DNA of 64,000 nucleotides from Deltaproteobacteria bacterium (lineage in GTDB: Bacteria; Desulfobacterota; JADFVX01). Below the pieces are notes generated by a model, which had not been told where the DNA came from, did no database searches, and saw nothing but the letters and a program-made list of their open reading frames with translations. Shown one piece after another: positions 8,393 through 62,686 of the stretch (position 1 is the stretch's first letter; each line of letters begins with the position of its first letter). The stretch lies in contig JAOUBX010000011.1 of the NCBI GenBank assembly GCA_029860075.1, positions 11,031 through 75,030 of the forward strand, given 5' to 3'. The position numbers and the translations under genes are program-made.

Positions 8393-9406
<1,014 letters not shown>

Positions 9407-20304: not shown

Positions 20305-22161
20305 TCAGGTCGTGGCCGTTTTCTTCGTGCTTATCTGGGCAAGCCAGAAGATAAATATAACGAGGGCCATAAAGATGAGCGCCCCCGTCGAAACCACGTT
20401 AGCCGCATAACCGAGGGTCGGCGTAAATGCATCGGGAGAGGCATCTCTCATAATGTCCTTCACATGCCAATGCTGCCTGATTCCGGAGCGAATGTATCCC
20501 ATAAGGCCCATAAGCCAGGTAAAGGAAACGGCCAAAAGAAAAAGGGCATACTGCGACCGGTCCGGCACCTTTCCCCAGTTAAGAGGCGCCACTTCCTTTG
20601 CCCCCTTATACATAAAGGTGTCGATAACAGTGCATAAGACAATGATCACCAGCGTCGTACAGACCTGTGGAATGGAGGCTGCCACTTTGTAAACGGTATT
20701 GGTAAAGTAACCGTAATAAACACCAAGGATGAGAATATTGATGATACCCGCTGTAAAGATGGCCGACTGAGCGGCATTACCCGCCTTTTCCCAGCTTACA
20801 ACAGCCACTTTATTGCACCGCCGGTAAAGCATGAAGCTTAAGAAGGTAAAGGAGATCATAATATTTACAGCTGTATTCTTGGCAGGCATAATACCGAGAG
20901 GCCCGAGGTATTTATTGTAGGGACCACCCAGCGATTTAAGTTCTGCATTTGTCAGGATAAGTGTATGAGGTGTAAACCAGACCAAAAATGCACCGATGAC
21001 TGCAATGGCAATATACTTGATATACCTGGTATATCTGACAGCGCCTTCACTTCTCCCCATACAGCACCAGAGATAATAGTTTGCAGAGAGAAAAAGAGCC
21101 CCAATGAGGACGGCCTGAATAATAAAGAGCCAGGCAAAAACACCTCCCATGAGAGTAATTCCCATCTGTTGGCTATAGGCATAAATCTCGGCTGTCAGAT
21201 AATAGCCTGCAAAGGGCAATGGAAGCAGTGCCGATATGGCGATGAAGTTGGCATTATAGCCCATCCAGTCATAATGTGCTCTTTCCTCGGCCTTTGTTGC
21301 ACAGAGGAATTTATAGGCCGCATAGGCGCCGACAATGGAACCGCCATAGGCAACGTTGGCAATCACCCTGTGCAGGTTGATGGGATTCCATAAAAAATTA
21401 TGAATCACATCCCATTCGGAACCGAGGAATGCCCCCTTAATATCGACACCTGCCGGACTCATCATAAAGGTGACCCAGGCATTGGCCAGGAGCATCAAAG
21501 TGGTACCGACGGCATTAAGCATAAGCCCTATGGTGAGATGAACCCATTTTCTAAAACCTCCCTGCAGCCACTGCCAGCCATAATAATAGATGTAAAGGCA
21601 GGCGGATTCGGCAAAGAAGAGGAAAGCATAGGCCAGCATGGTCTTGCTAAATATGGATGAAAGATATTTAAAGAAATCAGGATAAAAAACGAGAAGTCCG
21701 AAAGCAGTAAGCCCGCCCAGGATAGCTGTTATGGAATAAGCCGTGAGACTAACCTTAATGAACTCATAGGCCATATCATCAAATTTTTTGTCCTTTGTCG
21801 CCATGCCGATAGATTCAATGATGAAGACAAAGATGGGAACGGCAAGAACAAAGGCGGCAAACCATAAGTGAAGCTGGGCGGCAAGCCAGACAAAGACCCT
21901 GCCGTTAATTCCGGGAATTTGCGGATAATCATCCGCTGTCAGTACCGGCGCCGGGGGATAAACTTTCGCAGCAACCGCTTCTTCACCGGCAGCGGGTTCG
22001 GCAGGAGGAGCCGCCTCTTCCTGCGAACTTGCAAGAGCCTCTGCAATACCGGAAAGTGATCTGTCAAAAGCGCCTAAATCGACTATCTGCACCAGGGCAG
22101 ATGCAATGAGAAGAAATAACAGTAACGCTCTCCACTTCTTAATAAAAGAAAGCAAGCTCAT
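20305..22161 (-). CDS. Cytochrome bd superfamily (CydA-like) membrane protein, CydB-less, copy 1
   Basis: 618 aa polytopic. N-terminal AAQLHLWFAAFVLAVPIFVFIIESIG aligns with the CydA His19/Glu helix-1 motif. NAWVTFMMSPAG aligns with the CydA NGWMQNP region. C-terminal GYIRSGIRQHWHV aligns with the CydA GWxxAExGRQPW motif. No cydB follows. Confidence 0.8.
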   Translation of the reverse strand: MSLLSFIKKWRALLLFLLIASALVQIVDLGAFDRSLSGIAEALASSQEEAAPPAEPAAGEEAVAAKVYPPAPVLTADDYPQIPGINGRVFVWLAAQLHLWFAAFVLAVPIFVFIIESIGMATKDKKFDDMAYEFIKVSLTAYSITAILGGLTAFGLLVFYPDFFKYLSSIFSKTMLAYAFLFFAESACLYIYYYGWQWLQGGFRKWVHLTIGLMLNAVGTTLMLLANAWVTFMMSPAGVDIKGAFLGSEWDVIHNFLWNPINLHRVIANVAYGGSIVGAYAAYKFLCATKAEERAHYDWMGYNANFIAISALLPLPFAGYYLTAEIYAYSQQMGITLMGGVFAWLFIIQAVLIGALFLSANYYLWCCMGRSEGAVRYTRYIKYIAIAVIGAFLVWFTPHTLILTNAELKSLGGPYNKYLGPLGIMPAKNTAVNIMISFTFLSFMLYRRCNKVAVVSWEKAGNAAQSAIFTAGIINILILGVYYGYFTNTVYKVAASIPQVCTTLVIIVLCTVIDTFMYKGAKEVAPLNWGKVPDRSQYALFLLAVSFTWLMGLMGYIRSGIRQHWHVKDIMRDASPDAFTPTLGYAANVVSTGALIFMALVIFIFWLAQISTKKTATT

Positions 22162-28143: not shown

Positions 28144-28240
28144 AATCTCTCCTTTTTCCCTTAATTTTCATCAAAAAAAACTGCCTCTACCAGTACTACT
28201 TCAAAGTGAGAAGTTAGTATACATGGGTCAACTATGGTAC

Positions 28241-28360
28241 GGGCTGTTGCCCAAATCAAAAGAAGCCCTTCGACAAGCTCAGGGTGACCGTTTTTTAAAA
28301 CAAATATAACAACAATCCTGTCGTGCTGAGCCTGTCGAAGCACTTATCCGATTTGGGCAA
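28241..28360. repeat. Nested palindromic repeat element (family sharing CTTCGACAAGCTCAGGGTGAC)
   Basis: Outer inverted repeat GGCTGTTGCCCAAATC / GATTTGGGCAACAGCC encloses inner inverted repeat CTTCGACAAGCTCAG / CTGAGCCTGTCGAAG. The 22-mer is repeated at 8258-8280 in the typA leader. A diverged copy is at 27490-27545. Confidence 0.75.
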
Positions 28361-28384
28361 CAGCCTGTAGTAGTTCTAACTTTA

Positions 28385-28524
28385 TTTTCAATTTGGAAAG
28401 GAGGGATTTTTTGCAAGGTCAAGGAAATCAAGGGTTTCGCCGAGTCGTACTACTGTACGTCGCACAAGCAAATCTGAAAATTGACGCAGAGATTGCGAAA
28501 AGCACCCTTTCCGGATGAAAACTA
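28385..28524 (+). repeat. 140-bp dispersed repeat, copy A (candidate small RNA)
   Basis: About 93 percent identical to 35698..35839. Begins TTTTCAATTTGGAAAGGAGGG. Contains a hairpin CGTAC-TAC-TGTACG that shows a compensatory change in copy B. Confidence 0.7.
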
Positions 28525-28525
28525 A

Positions 28526-28720
28526 TTAGACTTCACATTTCTTGCATGTAGAAATCCCAAAAATCGTATAAAGTGGGCAATTCCCTACAAGACCCGTCAA
28601 GAGCGGAACTAGTCCCACCAGTCCCCAGAGCGTCTTTGGACCAACAACGACAAGGGATAGCAGAACAAGCCCGGCAACTACACGGATGACTCTCTCAGTA
28701 CTATTTTCATTGATTTTCAT
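28526..28720 (-). CDS. DUF2892/YgaP-like small membrane protein
   Basis: 64 aa, two TM helices, conserved GxVGxCP-like motif. Family commonly partnered with rhodaneses. Confidence 0.6.
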   Translation of the reverse strand: MKINENSTERVIRVVAGLVLLSLVVVGPKTLWGLVGLVPLLTGLVGNCPLYTIFGISTCKKCEV

Positions 28721-35035: not shown

Positions 35036-35512
35036 TCAATGATCGTGTGCCATAGAAGGTGCTTCACCAAGCTTCCTGCTCGCAAGTCTCTTGGCCATAA
35101 GCATGTCTTCCTCGTAGGCCGCTTTCTGAATCTGGGCCCATGTAATACCCTCGACCTTGATATCATCAATTTCGATCATATTTGCCACGGGATAAATGTA
35201 GCCGGTGATGGTAGCTTCCTTCCCCTTTTTCCCGATCAGTTTATGGGTCCTGATCACTTCGTGTCCTTTTGCATTTTCGACAATATTCCAGATGGTTCCG
35301 TCAGCTGTTTTAAAGCCGATACCGTGCTGTGAATAGAGGCTGCATTGCGCATTTGCGCCGTCAAGCTTTTTCAGGCTGCAGCCTACGCAAAGTAAAGTAC
35401 CTTTAAGCGTAATTTTGTCTAAACCTTTCTTTTTGTCCCAACCACCAGCAACGGCCAGCGTAGCCGTCAACAATAATACTGTTACCGCAATAGCTCCTTT
35501 TCTAAACATCAA
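35036..35512 (-). CDS. Periplasmic hypothetical protein
   Basis: 158 aa, signal peptide, two Cys pairs. No recognised family. Confidence 0.4.
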   Translation of the reverse strand: MMFRKGAIAVTVLLLTATLAVAGGWDKKKGLDKITLKGTLLCVGCSLKKLDGANAQCSLYSQHGIGFKTADGTIWNIVENAKGHEVIRTHKLIGKKGKEATITGYIYPVANMIEIDDIKVEGITWAQIQKAAYEEDMLMAKRLASRKLGEAPSMAHDH

Positions 35513-35663
35513 TTGACTCCTTTATTTTTTTATTATTATTTTCGTCTTCCAAAAAAGTTACTTATTTACCCCACTCCCCCCTTTCTCTAATAAGATATAT
35601 ATAGAATAAGAGACAAGAGAAAGTCCTTTTATTCCCAAAACAAATAAAAAAATAATTATTTAG

Positions 35664-35708
35664 TTTCCATCCAGAAACTATAATAAATGAAACTTTGTTT
35701 TCAATTCG
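35664..35708 (+). promoter_or_regulatory. Shared promoter-like motif CCATCCAGAAAC-TATAAT...TGTTTTCAAT
   Basis: A near-identical 45-bp motif recurs at 60553..60598 directly upstream of the U32 peptidase gene. It contains a TATAAT / GATAAT -10 hexamer. Confidence 0.45.
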
Positions 35709-35839
35709 GAAAGGAGGGATTTTTTTGCAAGGTCAAGGAAATCAAGGGTTTCGCCGAGTTGTACTACTGTACATCGCACAAGCAAAACCGAAGATTGACG
35801 CAGAGATTGCGAAAAAGCACCCTTGACCGATGAAAACTA
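35698..35839 (+). repeat. 140-bp dispersed repeat, copy B (candidate small RNA)
   Basis: See copy A. Here it is preceded by a TATAAT promoter-like motif. Confidence 0.7.
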
Positions 35840-35903
35840 TTTATGATTTTCCGGCCAGATAGAGCCAATAGAAACAAGAACAGAGCAATTTTTCAGCATA
35901 TTT

Positions 35904-40371: not shown

Positions 40372-40503
40372 TGATAACCTCCAAAGAATAGTTCTGAAAA
40401 TGACTTGTAATCTCCCCTAACCCCTCTTTTTCTAAGAGGGGAACATTGCTCTTTCCCCCTTAGAAAAAGGGGGATTAAGGGGATTTTCAAATAACTTTAT
40501 TAA

Positions 40504-42615
40504 TCAATCCTTCTTTTTCTGCGAAGCAATACCGCCAAGCCAGAACATAAAGGCCACTCCAACGAGGAAGACCAGAACGGAAAGTCCTACCATCTGCGTC
40601 ATAGTGTAGTTACTGGGCGTATAGGCCCACTCCGATGTATCCCTCATTACGCCAAAGATATGCCAGTCAGTCCTGAGTCCTGAACGGATGAAACCCATAA
40701 GCCCCATATTCATGGTAATAACTATGGTCAAAAGAAGGAGCGCGTACTGACTTCTTACTGTCATCTTTCCCCACTTCAGCGGTCCGATCTCCTTGGCATT
40801 TCTGAAAAGGAAGGCATCAATGGCACTGACAAGGATCAAAGCGCTGATTAGCTGTAGAAACTGGCTAACAGCAATATTCCTGAGGAAGGGCGATGCTTTT
40901 TCCATCACAACAAAGCCATAAACACCCAGGAAACCTGTGACGCTTAAAGCCGTAAAACCGAGATAGAGATATTGACCTAAAACCCCTTTATCCTTTAAGG
41001 CAAGGAGAACAGCAACAACAGCTACTGCACAGTTAGCTAGAAGAAGGTAGCCCGTTGTTTTAAAATACTCGGTCCGGTCCGCCGGTAGATCGAGGCTACC
41101 TGGATCGAGGGTGATCATGGAGACGGCATACTGACCAACAATCAATATGGCCAACAGGCCTGCCATAGGGATCACAATTTTAGGCGCTTTTCCTTGCCGG
41201 CTGATTGGCAGAGTATCACCTTTATTCCCTCTTCTGTATAGGAGAAAGCTGAAAAAAGTAGCCAGGATGATCAGGTTAACAACCGCATTCTTTGCCGGCA
41301 TCAGTCCTAAATATTTCAAGGTGGGGTGATACTGGCTACCACCCATCTGGGATACCTCTTGACCGGTAAGGGGCAGATTGTGAGGCGTCAGCCACACGGC
41401 AAAGGAGATGATAATAGCACCGAGAATGAACTTTATATATTTATAATACCTCTCCGCCCCGGGTATCCTCGTCATGCCGCTCCATAGATAGTAGTTACTT
41501 ATAAGGAAAAGCGACCCTACGAGCATAGCCTGGATGATAAAAGTCCATGAGAAGTCACCGCCCATCATGTTGTTCCCCATAACGGCACTCGTTGAATAGA
41601 CCTCACGTCCGAGATAGTATCCAGCGAAGGGAAGAGGAATAAGGGCTGCTATAGCGACGAAGTTCGCAATATAGCCCATCCAGTCATAATGAGCTTTCTC
41701 TTCATCAGTTTTTGATCCGAGAAATTTGACTGCCGCATAGGAACCTGCAACCAATCCTCCAAAAGCAAGGTTCCCAAGCATTCTGTGAATGGCCACCGGT
41801 GTTGCAAGGGTGTTTTCGAATACCTGCCAGAGCGTACCCGTCAGTACTCCCTTCTGGTCAACACCTCCGGGGCTCATCATAAAGCCGACCCAGGAATTAG
41901 CCATCTGCATGATAGCCGTACCAACGACGTTTAGCAAAATACCTATCAGTATGTGGGTACTCTTCCTGTCCTTCACCATCATTAAACCGATACCAACAGG
42001 TAAAATGTAGAGAAAAGCCATAAAGGTTCTCGTATCAGTCCTCATTTGGGGACCGAATGCTCCAAAGAAGAAAGCTATGCCGATCAAAATGACAACGGCA
42101 CCGAGACCTTTCATGAACCACTGCACAGGTTTGCTGTACTCTTCTCCGCCACTGAGCCAGCCCCAGCCGTAATAGTATAGATAGAGGCAGAAGGTTTCGC
42201 CGAAGAAAAGGAGGGCATAAATGAACATGACGTCCTTGAAGTTGCCCGCCATATACCCCATGAATGTGGGATAAAGTGTAAAAAGGGCAAAGGCGAGAAG
42301 CCCGCCGAATGCAGCCGTTGTCGCATAGGCAACACTCAAAAGAGATGTAAACTCGTATGACAGCTTGTCGAACTTCTTATCTCCACCCTTCCAGCCTACG
42401 ATCTCGATTATCACCGCAAATAGCGGAACACCAAGAACAAAAGCCCCGAAAAATAGGTGCATCTGGGCTATAAACCAGACAACCTTCCTGGAGTCGAGGC
42501 CCAACACCTGCCGGTATACATTCTCTTCAAGGGCATATGCCGTTGATGATAGTACAAGCGCCATCAACAGGGCCGCAACGCCCCCTTTAACAATCTTATT
42601 AGATAACAAAGTCAT
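40504..42615 (-). CDS. Cytochrome bd superfamily (CydA-like) membrane protein, CydB-less, copy 2
   Basis: 703 aa. It has FIAQMHLFFGAFVLGVPLFAVIIEIVG (CydA helix-1 His/Glu motif), HYDWMGY, and C-terminal GFIRSGLRTDWHIFGVMRD, which aligns with the CydA GRQPW motif region. Collinear with copy 1. Confidence 0.8.
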   Translation of the reverse strand: MTLLSNKIVKGGVAALLMALVLSSTAYALEENVYRQVLGLDSRKVVWFIAQMHLFFGAFVLGVPLFAVIIEIVGWKGGDKKFDKLSYEFTSLLSVAYATTAAFGGLLAFALFTLYPTFMGYMAGNFKDVMFIYALLFFGETFCLYLYYYGWGWLSGGEEYSKPVQWFMKGLGAVVILIGIAFFFGAFGPQMRTDTRTFMAFLYILPVGIGLMMVKDRKSTHILIGILLNVVGTAIMQMANSWVGFMMSPGGVDQKGVLTGTLWQVFENTLATPVAIHRMLGNLAFGGLVAGSYAAVKFLGSKTDEEKAHYDWMGYIANFVAIAALIPLPFAGYYLGREVYSTSAVMGNNMMGGDFSWTFIIQAMLVGSLFLISNYYLWSGMTRIPGAERYYKYIKFILGAIIISFAVWLTPHNLPLTGQEVSQMGGSQYHPTLKYLGLMPAKNAVVNLIILATFFSFLLYRRGNKGDTLPISRQGKAPKIVIPMAGLLAILIVGQYAVSMITLDPGSLDLPADRTEYFKTTGYLLLANCAVAVVAVLLALKDKGVLGQYLYLGFTALSVTGFLGVYGFVVMEKASPFLRNIAVSQFLQLISALILVSAIDAFLFRNAKEIGPLKWGKMTVRSQYALLLLTIVITMNMGLMGFIRSGLRTDWHIFGVMRDTSEWAYTPSNYTMTQMVGLSVLVFLVGVAFMFWLGGIASQKKKD

Positions 42616-60479: not shown

Positions 60480-60613
60480 ACAAGCCTGCCGGTTAGCGAC
60501 TATTAATACCATTATTTCATACCTGCTCTCACCTTCCGGAATTTCCAGGCTATTTAGTGTCCATCCAGAAACGATAATCAATCAAACTATGTTTTCAATC
60601 AGGAATTAGCGCC

Positions 60614-62686
60614 ATGAAAGAATTTAAGGAAGCCGAACTGCTTGCGCCTGCCGGAAGTATTGAAGCTTTTTTTGCCGCCATTGATTCCGGCGCCGATGCC
60701 CTCTACGCAGGTTTAAAATCATTTAGCGCCAGGGGCAGAGCGCGAAACTTTTCTATTGCCGACCTGGAAAAAGTCATTCCCTACGCTCATTCCAGGGATA
60801 AAAAAGTCTATATTGCCCTCAACACCATTCTAAAGGAAGGGGAACTTGAAAAGGTAATCTATGATCTCTCTGCCCTCTCCTGCCTTGGAGCGGACGCTGT
60901 AATTATCCAGGATCTCGGCCTTTATCGTATATTAAGAACTTATTTCCCTGACCTTACTATCCATGCCAGTACGCAAATGACGGTCCACAACAGTGCCGGT
61001 ATTAACCAACTGGCTTCCATGGGATTTAAAAGAATTGTTGTTGCACGTGAAATGACGCTAAAGGAGATCAAAGCCGCCAAAAAGAAATCGGACGTTGAAA
61101 TAGAGGCCTTTGTTCATGGATCAATGTGCTTCAGCTATGCCGGTTCCTGTTTTTTCAGCAGTTATCTCGGAGGAAAGAGTTCCAACCGCGGCGTCTGTGT
61201 TCAGCCCTGCCGAAGAGAATATCGTGACGGCCGGGAGGAAATGAATCCCTTCTCCATGGGAGATCTCTCTACCATTGAACTCATTCCTCAAATCATAAAA
61301 GCCGGAATAGATTCCTTCAAGATCGAGGGAAGAATGAAATCGGTAGAATACGTGGAAAATGTGGTCAAGGCTTACAGAATGGTCATGGATGCCGAGAATA
61401 ACAATCAAAAGGATGCAATTGATCAGGCAAAGGAACTCCTTAAAGATGTCATGTCACGCCAGCGCACGTCAGGCTTCTTTCTCGATGAAAGACCGCTATC
61501 GATTACCGTTCCGGGACGAAGCGGTAATATGGGAAAATTTGCAGGAAAGGTAATAAAGTGCGTCGGCACAAGAGCGCTCTTTAAGTCAACCATAGACCTT
61601 CACACCAGGGACAGGTTAAGAGTACAAAATGTAAAAACAGGGGGAAGAACGGCTTTTTCACTCAGGCAGATATGGTTGAAAGGTAAAAAAGTAAACCAGT
61701 CAAAAAAGGGAGATACCATAGAGATTACTGTTCCCGGCAGTTTAAACAAAGGGGATGCCCTTTTCAAAACGACGTCCCATGAGCACCGCGGTAAAAACAT
61801 TGAAGCCAAAAGACGGCTTGATAAAATAAAAGGCATCAAAATTCAGGAGGAAAGCAAGCTACAGGCAGCCGGGCTTTTAGAGAAACTGCTGAGAGAAAGC
61901 ATAAGCCCGCCTAAAGATGTCCATCCGGCAGGAACGCTTGTTCGGGTAGGTGATCTGAGAGATGTACCGAGGGTTTCAAGCCAGTGCAATGGCCTTATCA
62001 TTCCTCTTGTGAGGGCCACCATTCATAACCTGAAAAAGCATCTAAAAAGGCTTAAAGCCATGAAGGAGCGTATTGTCTGGTCTCTTCCACTGGTCATCCA
62101 GGAAGGGGAAATCCCCTTTTATAAGGATGTTATTGACTTTCTTGGGAGGGAAGGGTTTGCCAACTGGCAGGTTTCCAACATCAGTCATTTTAACCTTTTA
62201 AAGGACGGTCACTTTAATATTAGCAGCAGCCACTATATTCATGCGCTAAACAGCGCTGCCATACAAAGCTTGTCCGACCTCGGCTGCTCCAGAATAACGC
62301 TTTCCATCGAGAGTGACGGCAATAACCTGGAGGCCCTTGTGAAAAAGGGAGCAACAGCCATGGGGGATCTCCTCGTCTATTCTCACCTGCCCCTTTACGT
62401 GTCACGGGTAAAATGGACAAAAAAGAAGAAAGGCCTCGGAGGACAGGAAGGCGGCGAATATATCCCGAAAGAGCGTGATGGCCTGACCTATGTTTTTGCC
62501 GAAAAGCCCTTTTCCTTCTTTGGCTATATGAAGCGATTCAAAAAGATGGGCTTTAAGAACTTCCAGATCGATCTCAGCGGCGAGAGCAGACAGCGTGACA
62601 ATTACCAGGAAATATTGAGCAGCTATAAAAGTGGAAAATGGCTTGAAGAATGCTCTTCCATGAATATGGAGACGGGCCTGGAATAA
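60614..62686 (+). CDS. Peptidase U32 family protein (long form)
   Basis: 690 aa. N-terminal ELLAPAGSIEAFFAAIDSGADALYAG and catalytic-core Cys cluster (CFSYAGSCFFSSYLGGKSSNRGVCVQPC) typical of U32/RlhA/UbiU proteins. Confidence 0.8.
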   Translation: MKEFKEAELLAPAGSIEAFFAAIDSGADALYAGLKSFSARGRARNFSIADLEKVIPYAHSRDKKVYIALNTILKEGELEKVIYDLSALSCLGADAVIIQDLGLYRILRTYFPDLTIHASTQMTVHNSAGINQLASMGFKRIVVAREMTLKEIKAAKKKSDVEIEAFVHGSMCFSYAGSCFFSSYLGGKSSNRGVCVQPCRREYRDGREEMNPFSMGDLSTIELIPQIIKAGIDSFKIEGRMKSVEYVENVVKAYRMVMDAENNNQKDAIDQAKELLKDVMSRQRTSGFFLDERPLSITVPGRSGNMGKFAGKVIKCVGTRALFKSTIDLHTRDRLRVQNVKTGGRTAFSLRQIWLKGKKVNQSKKGDTIEITVPGSLNKGDALFKTTSHEHRGKNIEAKRRLDKIKGIKIQEESKLQAAGLLEKLLRESISPPKDVHPAGTLVRVGDLRDVPRVSSQCNGLIIPLVRATIHNLKKHLKRLKAMKERIVWSLPLVIQEGEIPFYKDVIDFLGREGFANWQVSNISHFNLLKDGHFNISSSHYIHALNSAAIQSLSDLGCSRITLSIESDGNNLEALVKKGATAMGDLLVYSHLPLYVSRVKWTKKKKGLGGQEGGEYIPKERDGLTYVFAEKPFSFFGYMKRFKKMGFKNFQIDLSGESRQRDNYQEILSSYKSGKWLEECSSMNMETGLE

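What the first reader, a model, noticed from the sequence alone, without database searches (positions are those of the whole stretch)
28385..28524. 140-bp element present twice (28385-28524 and 35698-35839), with a compensatory base change in a hairpin
The two copies are about 93 percent identical. Within them, CGTAC-TAC-GTACG in copy A becomes TGTAC-TAC-GTACA in copy B, a paired C/G to T/A change that preserves the stem. This favours a structured RNA over a coding or purely DNA-level element. A possible 35-codon TTG-initiated frame is broken by a 1-nt indel in copy B. Copy B sits just downstream of a TATAAT promoter-like motif. Both copies lie in intergenic regions next to periplasmic redox genes.
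Basis: seen in the sequence. Interest (0 to 1): 0.6.

Follow-up and report, generated by a model that had tools for sequence, protein, structure and literature searches.

The report
Hairpin-forming miniature transposon (MITE) copies
The two 140-base repeats are copies of a small non-coding jumping-DNA element (a MITE) found in many copies in anaerobic sediment bacteria; its long hairpin is genuinely conserved, but it is not a dedicated regulatory RNA gene of the neighbouring redox genes.

Summary
Two copies about 93% identical exist, and the C-G to T-A double change in a small hairpin is real.

The interpretation needs revising. The repeats belong to a dispersed family of about 175-190 bp elements.
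- **Abundance:** I found 108 distinct full copies in genomes and metagenomes, at least 6 in one MAG.
- **Ends:** the family has terminal inverted repeats (GTGTCCATCCGGAAAC ... GTTTCCGGACGAAAAC) and an extra internal copy of the left repeat.
- **Target duplication:** a 6-bp duplication (consensus TARYTA) is perfect in 52 of 108 copies, against about 3 expected.
- **Filled and empty sites:** these exist. A relative with the same gene order lacks copy B and has a single TAAATT there.
- **Context:** copies are intergenic, randomly oriented to genes, and next to unrelated genes. There is no conserved reading frame and no Rfam match.

This makes it a MITE. The window holds one complete copy (B), one 5'-damaged copy (A) and a 5' fragment at 60551-60605.

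The 141-nt hairpin covaries: 16 pairs have double changes and 90.8% of cells are paired. G:U exceeds A:C 110 to 32. The apical part is more conserved than the ends, which is unusual and unexplained.

I found no autonomous partner. Verdict: a new member of a known kind, of modest interest.

The parts
35657..35662 (.). Left target-site duplication of copy B (TATTTA)
   Evidence: The same hexamer recurs at 35838-35843. In the family, 52 of 108 copies have 6/6 identical flanks.
35663..35694 (+). Copy B 5' module. It holds the left terminal inverted repeat GTTTCCATCCAGAAAC (35663-35678) and an AT-rich remnant of a short hairpin that contains TATAAT.
   Evidence: Family alignments and TIR search. 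On the - strand, an outward promoter-like site TTGAAA-16-TATAGT at 35704..35677 overlaps this module.
35695..35837 (+). Copy B long imperfect hairpin. It runs from the inner direct copy of the TIR (GTTTTCAATTCGGAAAGG), through the conserved apical core, to the right TIR (CCTTGACCGATGAAAAC).
   Evidence: Fold -43.8 kcal/mol, z -4.1. CM score 126.8 bits. Covariation.
35760..35773 (+). Tip hairpin of copy B, TGTAC-TACT-GTACA
   Evidence: Pair 69:82 of alignment A2 is C-G in 27 sequences and U-A in 2. In the 103-copy set it is C-G in 87 and T-A in 13.
35838..35843 (.). Right target-site duplication of copy B (TATTTA)
   Evidence: The relative L144 has a single TAAATT at the corresponding place on the opposite strand.
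28382..28522 (+). Copy A long hairpin (inner TIR copy, core, right TIR). The 5' module is lost or replaced.
   Evidence: Fold -40.9 kcal/mol, z -2.7. CM score 124.7 bits. Upstream sequence belongs to another palindrome.
28446..28459 (+). Tip hairpin of copy A, CGTAC-TACT-GTACG
28523..28528 (.). Hexamer TAATTA flanking the right end of copy A. It fits the TARYTA target consensus. No matching left copy remains. It contains the stop codon of the YgaP-like gene on the - strand.
60551..60605 (+). Third, truncated copy. It consists of TATTTA, the left TIR GTGTCCATCCAGAAAC, the 5' module and the first 15 nt of the hairpin arm. It ends 8 nt before the ATG at 60614.
   Evidence: Direct-repeat family D3, 87% identical to copy B. 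Exact TIR match. Sequence, ORF.

Best explanation

**Shown**
- The family is multi-copy and dispersed.
- It has a left terminal inverted repeat, a short 5' hairpin module, a second internal direct copy of the left repeat, a conserved core and a right inverted repeat.
- It is bounded by a 6-bp target-site duplication with consensus TARYTA.
- The same site exists filled and empty.
- The inner repeat, core and right repeat form a 141-nt imperfect hairpin whose pairs covary.

**Inferred**
- A trans-acting DDE-type transposase, encoded elsewhere, recognises the three repeat copies. It cuts the target with a 6-bp stagger and inserts the element, preferentially at TTARYTAA-like sites that often overlap stop codons in intergenic DNA.
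- The hairpin is kept by selection on a single strand. Most likely this acts on the + strand RNA in read-through or self-promoted transcripts (stability or processing effects, as in other bacterial MITEs). Less likely it acts on single-stranded DNA.

The neighbouring redox genes are bystanders. In this window, copy B is a complete, probably recent insertion. Copy A is an older copy whose 5' module was lost next to another palindromic repeat. The site at 60551-60605 is a 5' fragment.
For: **Abundance**
- 24 loci matched the 20-mer in species-representative genomes. About 18 of these carry true copies, with 6 in one MAG and 3 in another.
- Together these give 108 distinct full copies.

**Target-site duplication**
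- 52 of 108 copies have perfect 6/6 flanks, against 3.1 expected. The hexamers vary (TAGTTA, TAGCTC, GAACTA and others) but match on both sides of each copy.

**Filled and empty sites**
- Paralogous: another repeat carries a single TAGCTC in 7 loci and is split by this element, with TAGCTC on both sides, in L035 and L036.
- Orthologous: L144 has the same gene order and its flanking protein is 82% identical. Its spacer is 151 nt instead of 391 nt, it gives no CM hit, and it has a single TAAATT.

**No coding or host function signal**
- No conserved reading frame. Only 30 of 108 copies are stop-free in the best frame, and anchor spacing varies between 38, 39 and 40 nt.
- 106 of 108 copies are intergenic, and orientation to flanking genes is random.
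- No recurrent neighbouring protein.

**Hairpin**
- 52 pairs, with 90.8% of cells paired against 38-50% when the partner is slid.
- 16 pairs have double changes: 125 cells against 44.5 in shuffles, reached in 0 of 500 shuffles.
- G:U 110 against A:C 32, and the + strand folds better in 30 of 31 sequences.

**Precedent**
- Literature describes MITEs that fold as RNA hairpins, carry promoters or IHF sites, and show compensatory changes (bcr1, Correia) (PMC3184786).
Against: - I found no autonomous element with the same ends, and no transposase, in 1 Mb of flanking sequence. The mobilising enzyme and its family are therefore unknown.
- The termini are less conserved (59-72% pairwise identity) than the apical core (84-86%). 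This is the reverse of what is usual for MITEs.
- In the window's subfamily, the left and right terminal repeats occur in mismatched allelic combinations.
- Transcription was not tested.
- Part of the covariation in the basal stem could reflect co-evolution of transposase-binding sites rather than pairing.
Confidence: 0.85

Rival explanations
1. A stand-alone structured small RNA or cis-regulatory RNA. It would be transcribed from the + strand, have its fold maintained by selection, and act on the adjacent periplasmic redox genes.
For: - Covariation and G:U bias favour the + strand.
- A TATAAT lies upstream of copy B.
- The apical core and its unpaired purine loops are strongly conserved.
Against: - There is a target-site duplication and there are empty sites.
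- More than 100 copies sit next to unrelated genes in random orientation.
- Both window copies are antisense to all flanking genes.
- No terminator-like site was found at either copy.
- There is no Rfam hit.
- The TATAAT is part of the element and is absent from other subfamilies.
Confidence: 0.08
2. A single-stranded-DNA hairpin site used by a non-DDE recombinase (REP/REPIN with a RAYT, IS200/IS605-like ends, or an integron attC-like site). The fold would be selected on one DNA strand.
For: - The hairpin is strand-biased and has conserved unpaired bases.
- The ends vary while the structure is kept.
Against: - Those systems do not produce variable 6-bp target duplications.
- No integrase, RAYT or TnpA was found nearby.
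- Copies are dispersed singly, not in cassette arrays.
Confidence: 0.05
3. A small protein gene of 35-48 codons with a strong Shine-Dalgarno sequence (AAAGGAGGG) and a TTG start.
For: - ORFs of 41-48 aa exist in both window copies.
- An SD-like sequence lies 7-8 nt before the TTG.
Against: - The frame differs between subfamilies.
- Indels of 1-2 nt occur between the anchors.
- Only 30 of 108 copies are stop-free in any one frame.
- The SD-like word is absent in most subfamilies, which read GGAAACGAGC instead.
Confidence: 0.02

Closest known systems
bcr1 repeat of the Bacillus cereus group (MITE-like, about 155 bp)
   Same: It is a non-autonomous mobile repeat flanked by short direct repeats. 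It is non-coding, and it has compensatory base changes that keep an RNA-level fold (PMC3184786).
   Different: It has 5-bp direct repeats, a cruciform of two stem-loops, and is restricted to Bacillus. There is no sequence similarity. Transcription is shown for bcr1 but not here.
Correia elements / nemis of Neisseria
   Same: It is a MITE that folds into a long RNA hairpin. It carries promoter-like sequences at its ends and an IHF-consensus site near the centre (PMC3184786). Here, WATCAANNNNTTR is present in 76 of 108 copies, and there is an outward promoter-like site in the window's subfamily.
   Different: From my own knowledge, Correia duplicates TA and has about 26-bp TIRs. Here the duplication is 6 bp (TARYTA). 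The IHF-like site is missing in the two window copies, and no binding has been tested.
Chunjie MITE of Geobacter uraniireducens Rf4
   Same: It is a MITE of 178-235 bp in a related host group (Desulfuromonadales). It is intergenic and forms stable hairpins.
   Different: Chunjie has 21-bp TIRs and 9-bp direct repeats, is A+T-rich, and folds at about -98 to -130 kcal/mol. Here the direct repeats are 6 bp and the folds are -41 to -68 kcal/mol. The 20-mer scan returned no G. uraniireducens record. A direct sequence comparison was not possible because the paper is not held.
REP / REPIN elements
   Same: They are short, intergenic, palindromic and multi-copy.
   Different: REPINs have no target-site duplication and are tied to RAYT genes. 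This element has TIRs and a TSD, and no associated protein was found.

Membership tests
MITE (non-autonomous DNA transposon) | Short, non-coding | tested here: met
   The element is 175-190 bp. No reading frame is conserved.
MITE (non-autonomous DNA transposon) | Terminal inverted repeats | tested here: met
   The left end GTGTCCATCCGGAAAC matches the reverse complement of the right end, GTTTTCGTCCGGAAAC, at 13 of 16 positions. The match is perfect in L044 and L102.
MITE (non-autonomous DNA transposon) | Target-site duplication flanking each copy | tested here: met
   52 of 108 copies have a perfect 6-bp duplication, against 3.1 expected. The consensus is TARYTA.
MITE (non-autonomous DNA transposon) | Many dispersed copies within a genome | tested here: met
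   6 copies on 6 contigs of MAG CAZQAE01, 3 copies each in JACZKE01 and CAYSHR01, and three sites in this 64-kb window.
MITE (non-autonomous DNA transposon) | Same site found both filled and empty | tested here: met
   Paralogous sites. An orthologous site in L144, where the flanks are diverged and the match is not base-perfect.
MITE (non-autonomous DNA transposon) | A cognate autonomous IS with the same ends | tested here: inconclusive
   None was found in the window or in about 1 Mb of loci.
Chunjie MITE | 9-bp direct repeats and 21-bp TIRs | tested here: not met
   The duplication is 6 bp and the TIRs are about 16 bp, against the values quoted in PMC3184786.
Rfam structured RNA families | Match to a curated covariance model | tested here: not met
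   No hit at gathering score in the window or in 5 loci with copies. Nothing relevant at E-value up to 10.
Cis-regulatory RNA (riboswitch or leader) or sRNA gene | Fixed orientation and position relative to a regulated gene, with its own promoter and terminator | tested here: not met
   The upstream gene is on the same strand in 51 copies and the opposite strand in 41. The downstream gene is on the same strand in 42 and the opposite in 49. No terminator-like site was found at the copies.
Structured RNA in general | Covariation supporting the fold | tested here: met
   16 of 52 pairs have double changes. The covariation score is 0.248 against 0.142 in shuffles, reached in 0 of 500 shuffles. Slid controls give 0.05-0.09.
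Structured RNA in general | Transcript detected | not testable with these tools
   No expression data are available.
REP/REPIN or integron attC | No TSD, with an associated RAYT or integrase, in arrays or doublets | tested here: not met
   A TSD is present. No recurrent neighbouring protein was found.

The most novel reading that the evidence does not exclude
The element may be more than a passive MITE. Its apical hairpin domain is more conserved than its transposon ends, has invariant purine internal loops, and shows a + strand G:U bias. It occurs in MAGs labelled as different phyla (Desulfuromonadales, Desulfobacterales, Thermoanaerobaculia). This domain could be a functional RNA or protein-binding module that the element carries for its own propagation or for host manipulation. 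Examples would be a transposase cofactor or guide, or a decoy for a host RNA-binding protein. That would make it a horizontally spreading mobile RNA gene.
Probability: 0.12. Interest if true: 0.65.

Novelty: new member of a known kind. Interest (0 to 1): 0.3.

Why it matters
- It stops a mobile repeat from being annotated as a regulatory RNA of periplasmic redox genes.
- It documents an abundant MITE family in anaerobic sediment bacteria, with a clear target preference (TARYTA) and a defined architecture. As far as Rfam, the sequence-string literature search and the plasmid and phage collections show, the family is undescribed.
- Such elements break assemblies, create spurious small ORFs, and can donate promoters or ribosome-binding sites. 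A fragment sits 8 nt upstream of a gene start at 60614.
- A core more conserved than the ends, with RNA-type covariation, makes this a reasonable test case for whether bacterial MITEs are selected at the RNA level.

Tried and rejected
- **Rfam:** gathering scores on the window and 5 loci, and E-value up to 10 on the copy A region. Nothing relevant.
- **Viral contigs, plasmids and phages:** no match.
- **Literature search for six sequence strings of the element:** no paper.
- **Chunjie paper:** not held, so no sequence comparison was possible.
- **Search for an autonomous partner:**
  - TIR pairs 0.5-6 kb apart in all loci were all explained by neighbouring MITE copies.
  - All-against-all clustering of 1271 ORFs near copies gave only housekeeping families.
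  - A TIR search of the window found only the known sites.
- **Sigma-54 promoter in the 5' module** (TGGCACGACCGCAG): rejected by eye because the spacing and the -12 element do not fit.
- **CsrA-sponge idea** (three CAAGG words): not pursued, because the motifs lie in stems and internal loops and there is no supporting evidence.
- **Small-protein reading:** rejected.
- **Alternative 2-bp duplication with TA as part of the ends:** rejected, because hexamers not ending in TA (TAGCTC, TAACTG, TAGATG, TAATTC) also match on both sides.
- **Exact-protein look-ups for two window proteins:** failed before a homologue search gave the source and a relative.

Full report
**Observation.**
- Searches confirm two copies at about 28382-28522 and 35695-35837. 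They are roughly 93% identical with two single-base indels, and share a 95-nt gapless core at 95%.
- The hairpin is CGTAC-TACT-GTACG in copy A (28446-28459) and TGTAC-TACT-GTACA in copy B (35760-35773). The paired C-G to T-A change is real.
- Repeat finding also showed a third site. The 55 nt just upstream of copy B recur at 60551-60605 at 87% identity.
- As RNA, the + strand of both copies folds into one long imperfect hairpin (-40.9 and -43.8 kcal/mol, z -2.7 and -4.1). The - strand folds less well.
- Rfam gave nothing at either copy.

**The family.**
- A 20-mer from the invariant part (GGTCAAGGAAATCAAGGGTT) matched 24 loci in species-representative genomes. About 18 carry whole-length homologues, with several per genome: 6 in MAG CAZQAE01, and 3 each in a Desulfuromonadales MAG and in CAYSHR01. 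Single copies occur in MAGs labelled Thermoanaerobaculia, Desulfobacterales and Proteobacteria.
- In total there are 108 distinct full copies.
- The window's own subfamily (GGAAAGGAGGGA ... GCACCCTTTCC) is abundant in metagenome Ga0224514.
- The window comes from a MAG named Deltaproteobacteria bacterium.

**Anatomy.** From left to right the element has:
- A left terminal repeat, GTGTCCATCCGGAAAC. Subfamily variants include GTTCCCATCCCAGAAC.
- A short hairpin. In the window's subfamily this is degraded to the AT-rich sequence CTATAATAAATCAAAC.
- A second, internal direct copy of the terminal repeat, GTTTTCGATCCGGAAACGAG.
- A conserved core: GGTCAAGGAAATCAAGGRTTTG, a tip hairpin GGCGTA-loop-TACGCC, CGCACAAKCAAA, GATTGAC and GAGATTGCGGAAAAGGGCC.
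- A right terminal repeat, CGTTTCCGGACGAAAAC, complementary to both left copies.

**Mobility.**
- The 6 bases outside the two ends are identical in 52 of 108 copies and differ at one position in 16 more. Random pairing of flanks gives 3.1 perfect matches.
- The hexamers differ between copies (TAGTTA, TAATTA, TAGCTA, TATTTA, TAGCTC, GAACTA and others). The consensus is TARYTA within TTARYTAA.
- Hexamers that do not end in TA also match on both sides. This rules out a 2-bp duplication with TA as part of the ends.
- Copy B has TATTTA at 35657-35662 and at 35838-35843.
- Two filled-versus-empty comparisons exist.
  - Another repeat family is intact, with one TAGCTC, in seven loci. In L035 and L036 it is split by this element with TAGCTC on both sides.
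  - A relative has the same gene order (cytochrome c/EB_dh, small ORF, Rrf2, then the 158-aa protein at 82% identity, DsbD, thioredoxin-like). Its Rrf2-to-gene spacer is 151 nt instead of 391 nt. It gives no model hit. It carries one TAAATT where the window's - strand reads TAAATA-element-TAAATA. The flanks are otherwise diverged, so the match is good but not base-perfect.
- A tandem dimer shares the same hexamer three times (L053). This fits insertion into the duplicated target of an earlier copy.

**What it is not.**
- **Not coding.** The spacing between the two arms varies between 38, 39 and 40 nt. Only 30 of 108 copies are stop-free in the best frame, and the SD-like word is subfamily-specific.
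- **Not a cis-regulator or a terminator.**
  - 106 of 108 copies are intergenic.
  - The upstream gene is on the same strand in 51 copies and the opposite strand in 41. The downstream gene is on the same strand in 42 and the opposite in 49.
  - Neighbouring genes are unrelated housekeeping families.
  - No terminator-like site lies at the copies.
  - Both window copies are antisense to every adjacent gene: the rhodanese, YgaP-like, Rrf2 and 158-aa periplasmic protein genes.
- **Not on mobile vehicles sampled here.** It is not found in phage, plasmid or viral collections. None of six sequence strings from the element occurs in the searchable literature.

**The structure is nevertheless real.**
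- I tested 31 sequences that are each less than 95% identical to the others (alignment A2). A 52-pair hairpin is paired in 90.8% of cells, against 38-50% when the 3' partner is slid.
- 16 pairs show changes on both sides, covering 125 cells against 44.5 in shuffles. This was reached in 0 of 500 shuffles. RNAalifold independently finds 9 such pairs.
- Covariation is strongest in the basal stem. There it could also reflect co-evolving transposase-binding sites, since all three repeat copies change together.
- Covariation also occurs in internal helices: 35:117 is A-U in 19 and G-C in 10, and 55:96, 60:91, 69:82 and 73:78 covary as well.
- G:U cells outnumber A:C cells 110 to 32. The + strand folds better than the - strand in 30 of 31 sequences, with means of -53.1 and -44.5 kcal/mol. 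This points to selection on one strand, RNA or single-stranded DNA.
T-A occurs in 13 of 103 copies, so it was probably one event that then spread by transposition.

**An unexplained feature.**
- I avoided ascertainment bias by measuring each anchor region only in copies found through the other anchor. The apical arms show 84-86% mean pairwise identity. The basal stem, which carries the inner and right copies of the terminal repeat, shows 59-72%.
- The unpaired purine-rich internal loops are nearly invariant.
- In the window's subfamily, left and right end variants (CCGGAAA type and CGGTCAA type) occur in mixed combinations.
- MITEs usually conserve their ends most. Here something constrains the core.
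- An IHF consensus (WATCAANNNNTTR) sits at AATCAAGGRTTTG in 76 of 108 copies but not in the two window copies. This is a lead only.

**Mechanism.**
- I commit to a MITE mobilised in trans by a DDE-type transposase that makes 6-bp staggered cuts. The target duplication and empty sites are shown. The enzyme is inferred.
- No autonomous partner or transposase was found in the window or in about 1 Mb of flanks.
- The hairpin most likely acts in transcripts, affecting processing, stability or insulation, as described for other bacterial MITEs (PMC3184786). This step is inference.

**Comparison with known elements.**
- The closest analogues are bcr1 of Bacillus (mobile, short direct repeats, compensatory changes, transcribed) and Correia elements (hairpin, promoters, IHF site).
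- Chunjie of Geobacter uraniireducens is from a related host group but has 9-bp direct repeats and 21-bp TIRs.
- None of these shares sequence or duplication length with this family. It is a new member of a known kind.

**In this window.**
- Copy B (35663-35837) is complete with a perfect duplication.
- Copy A (28382-28522) keeps the hairpin and the right flank TAATTA, which contains the stop codon of the YgaP-like gene. Its 5' module is replaced by a different 132-bp palindromic repeat at 28238-28369.
- The site at 60551-60605 is a 5' fragment ending 8 nt before the start codon at 60614.
- The covariance model finds no further copies.

Noticed in passing
window 28238-28369: A different palindromic repeat of about 132 bp lies directly 5' of copy A. 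Its outer arms are 95% complementary, and its inner arms carry the words CTTCGACAAGCTCAG / CTGAGCCTGTCGAAG. It occupies the place of copy A's 5' module, so the rhodanese-YgaP spacer is a stack of two repeat elements.
   Followed up: partly
window 40397-40498: Another intergenic palindrome with 47-nt arms that are 74% complementary (TCCCCTAACCCCTCTTTTTCTAAGAGGGGAA ...). It also gives a weak hit to the hairpin model at 20 bits. It is probably a separate REP-like repeat.
   Followed up: partly
window 60551-60616: The truncated 5' fragment of the element ends 8 nt before the ATG (60614) of a 690-aa ORF. By eye the N-terminus MKEFKEAELLAPAGS looks like a U32 peptidase; I did not scan it. The fragment contributes a GATAAT and an AGGA just upstream, so it may have been co-opted as promoter and ribosome-binding region.
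   Followed up: partly
window 35704..35677 (- strand): A promoter-like site, TTGAAA-16-TATAGT (10 of 12), lies inside the 5' module of copy B. It points outward toward the 158-aa periplasmic protein gene at 35036-35512. The same sequence is in the subfamily consensus.
   Followed up: no
window 28523-28528: The stop codon of the YgaP-like gene (28526-28528, - strand) lies inside the hexamer TAATTA flanking copy A. The target consensus TTARYTAA contains stop codons on both strands, which may explain why insertions sit at gene ends.
   Followed up: partly
L035, L036, L118, L119, L139 (also L027, L060, L120, L131, L140): A second MITE-like family of about 170 bp, with ends AGGAGNCTGTCGGACTAT, is nested with this one in both directions. 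This element sits inside it in L035 and L036. It sits inside this element at the same point of the conserved core (GGTCAA|GGAAATC) in three copies with different flanks. This may be a site preference for the core.
   Followed up: partly
L053 800-1203; L139 about 8400-8700: There is a tandem dimer of the element sharing the hexamer TAGTTA three times. There is also a copy whose 5' module (the TIR-like unit) is present three times in a row.
   Followed up: no
L018 versus L047: Two loci have near-identical flanks, so apparently the same site in related genomes. They carry copies of the element whose 5' modules differ much more than the flanks do. Independent insertions or conversion between copies could explain this.
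   Followed up: no
window 21197-21531 and 41612-41946: Two stretches about 72-73% identical lie 20.4 kb apart. They are probably paralogous genes.
   Followed up: no
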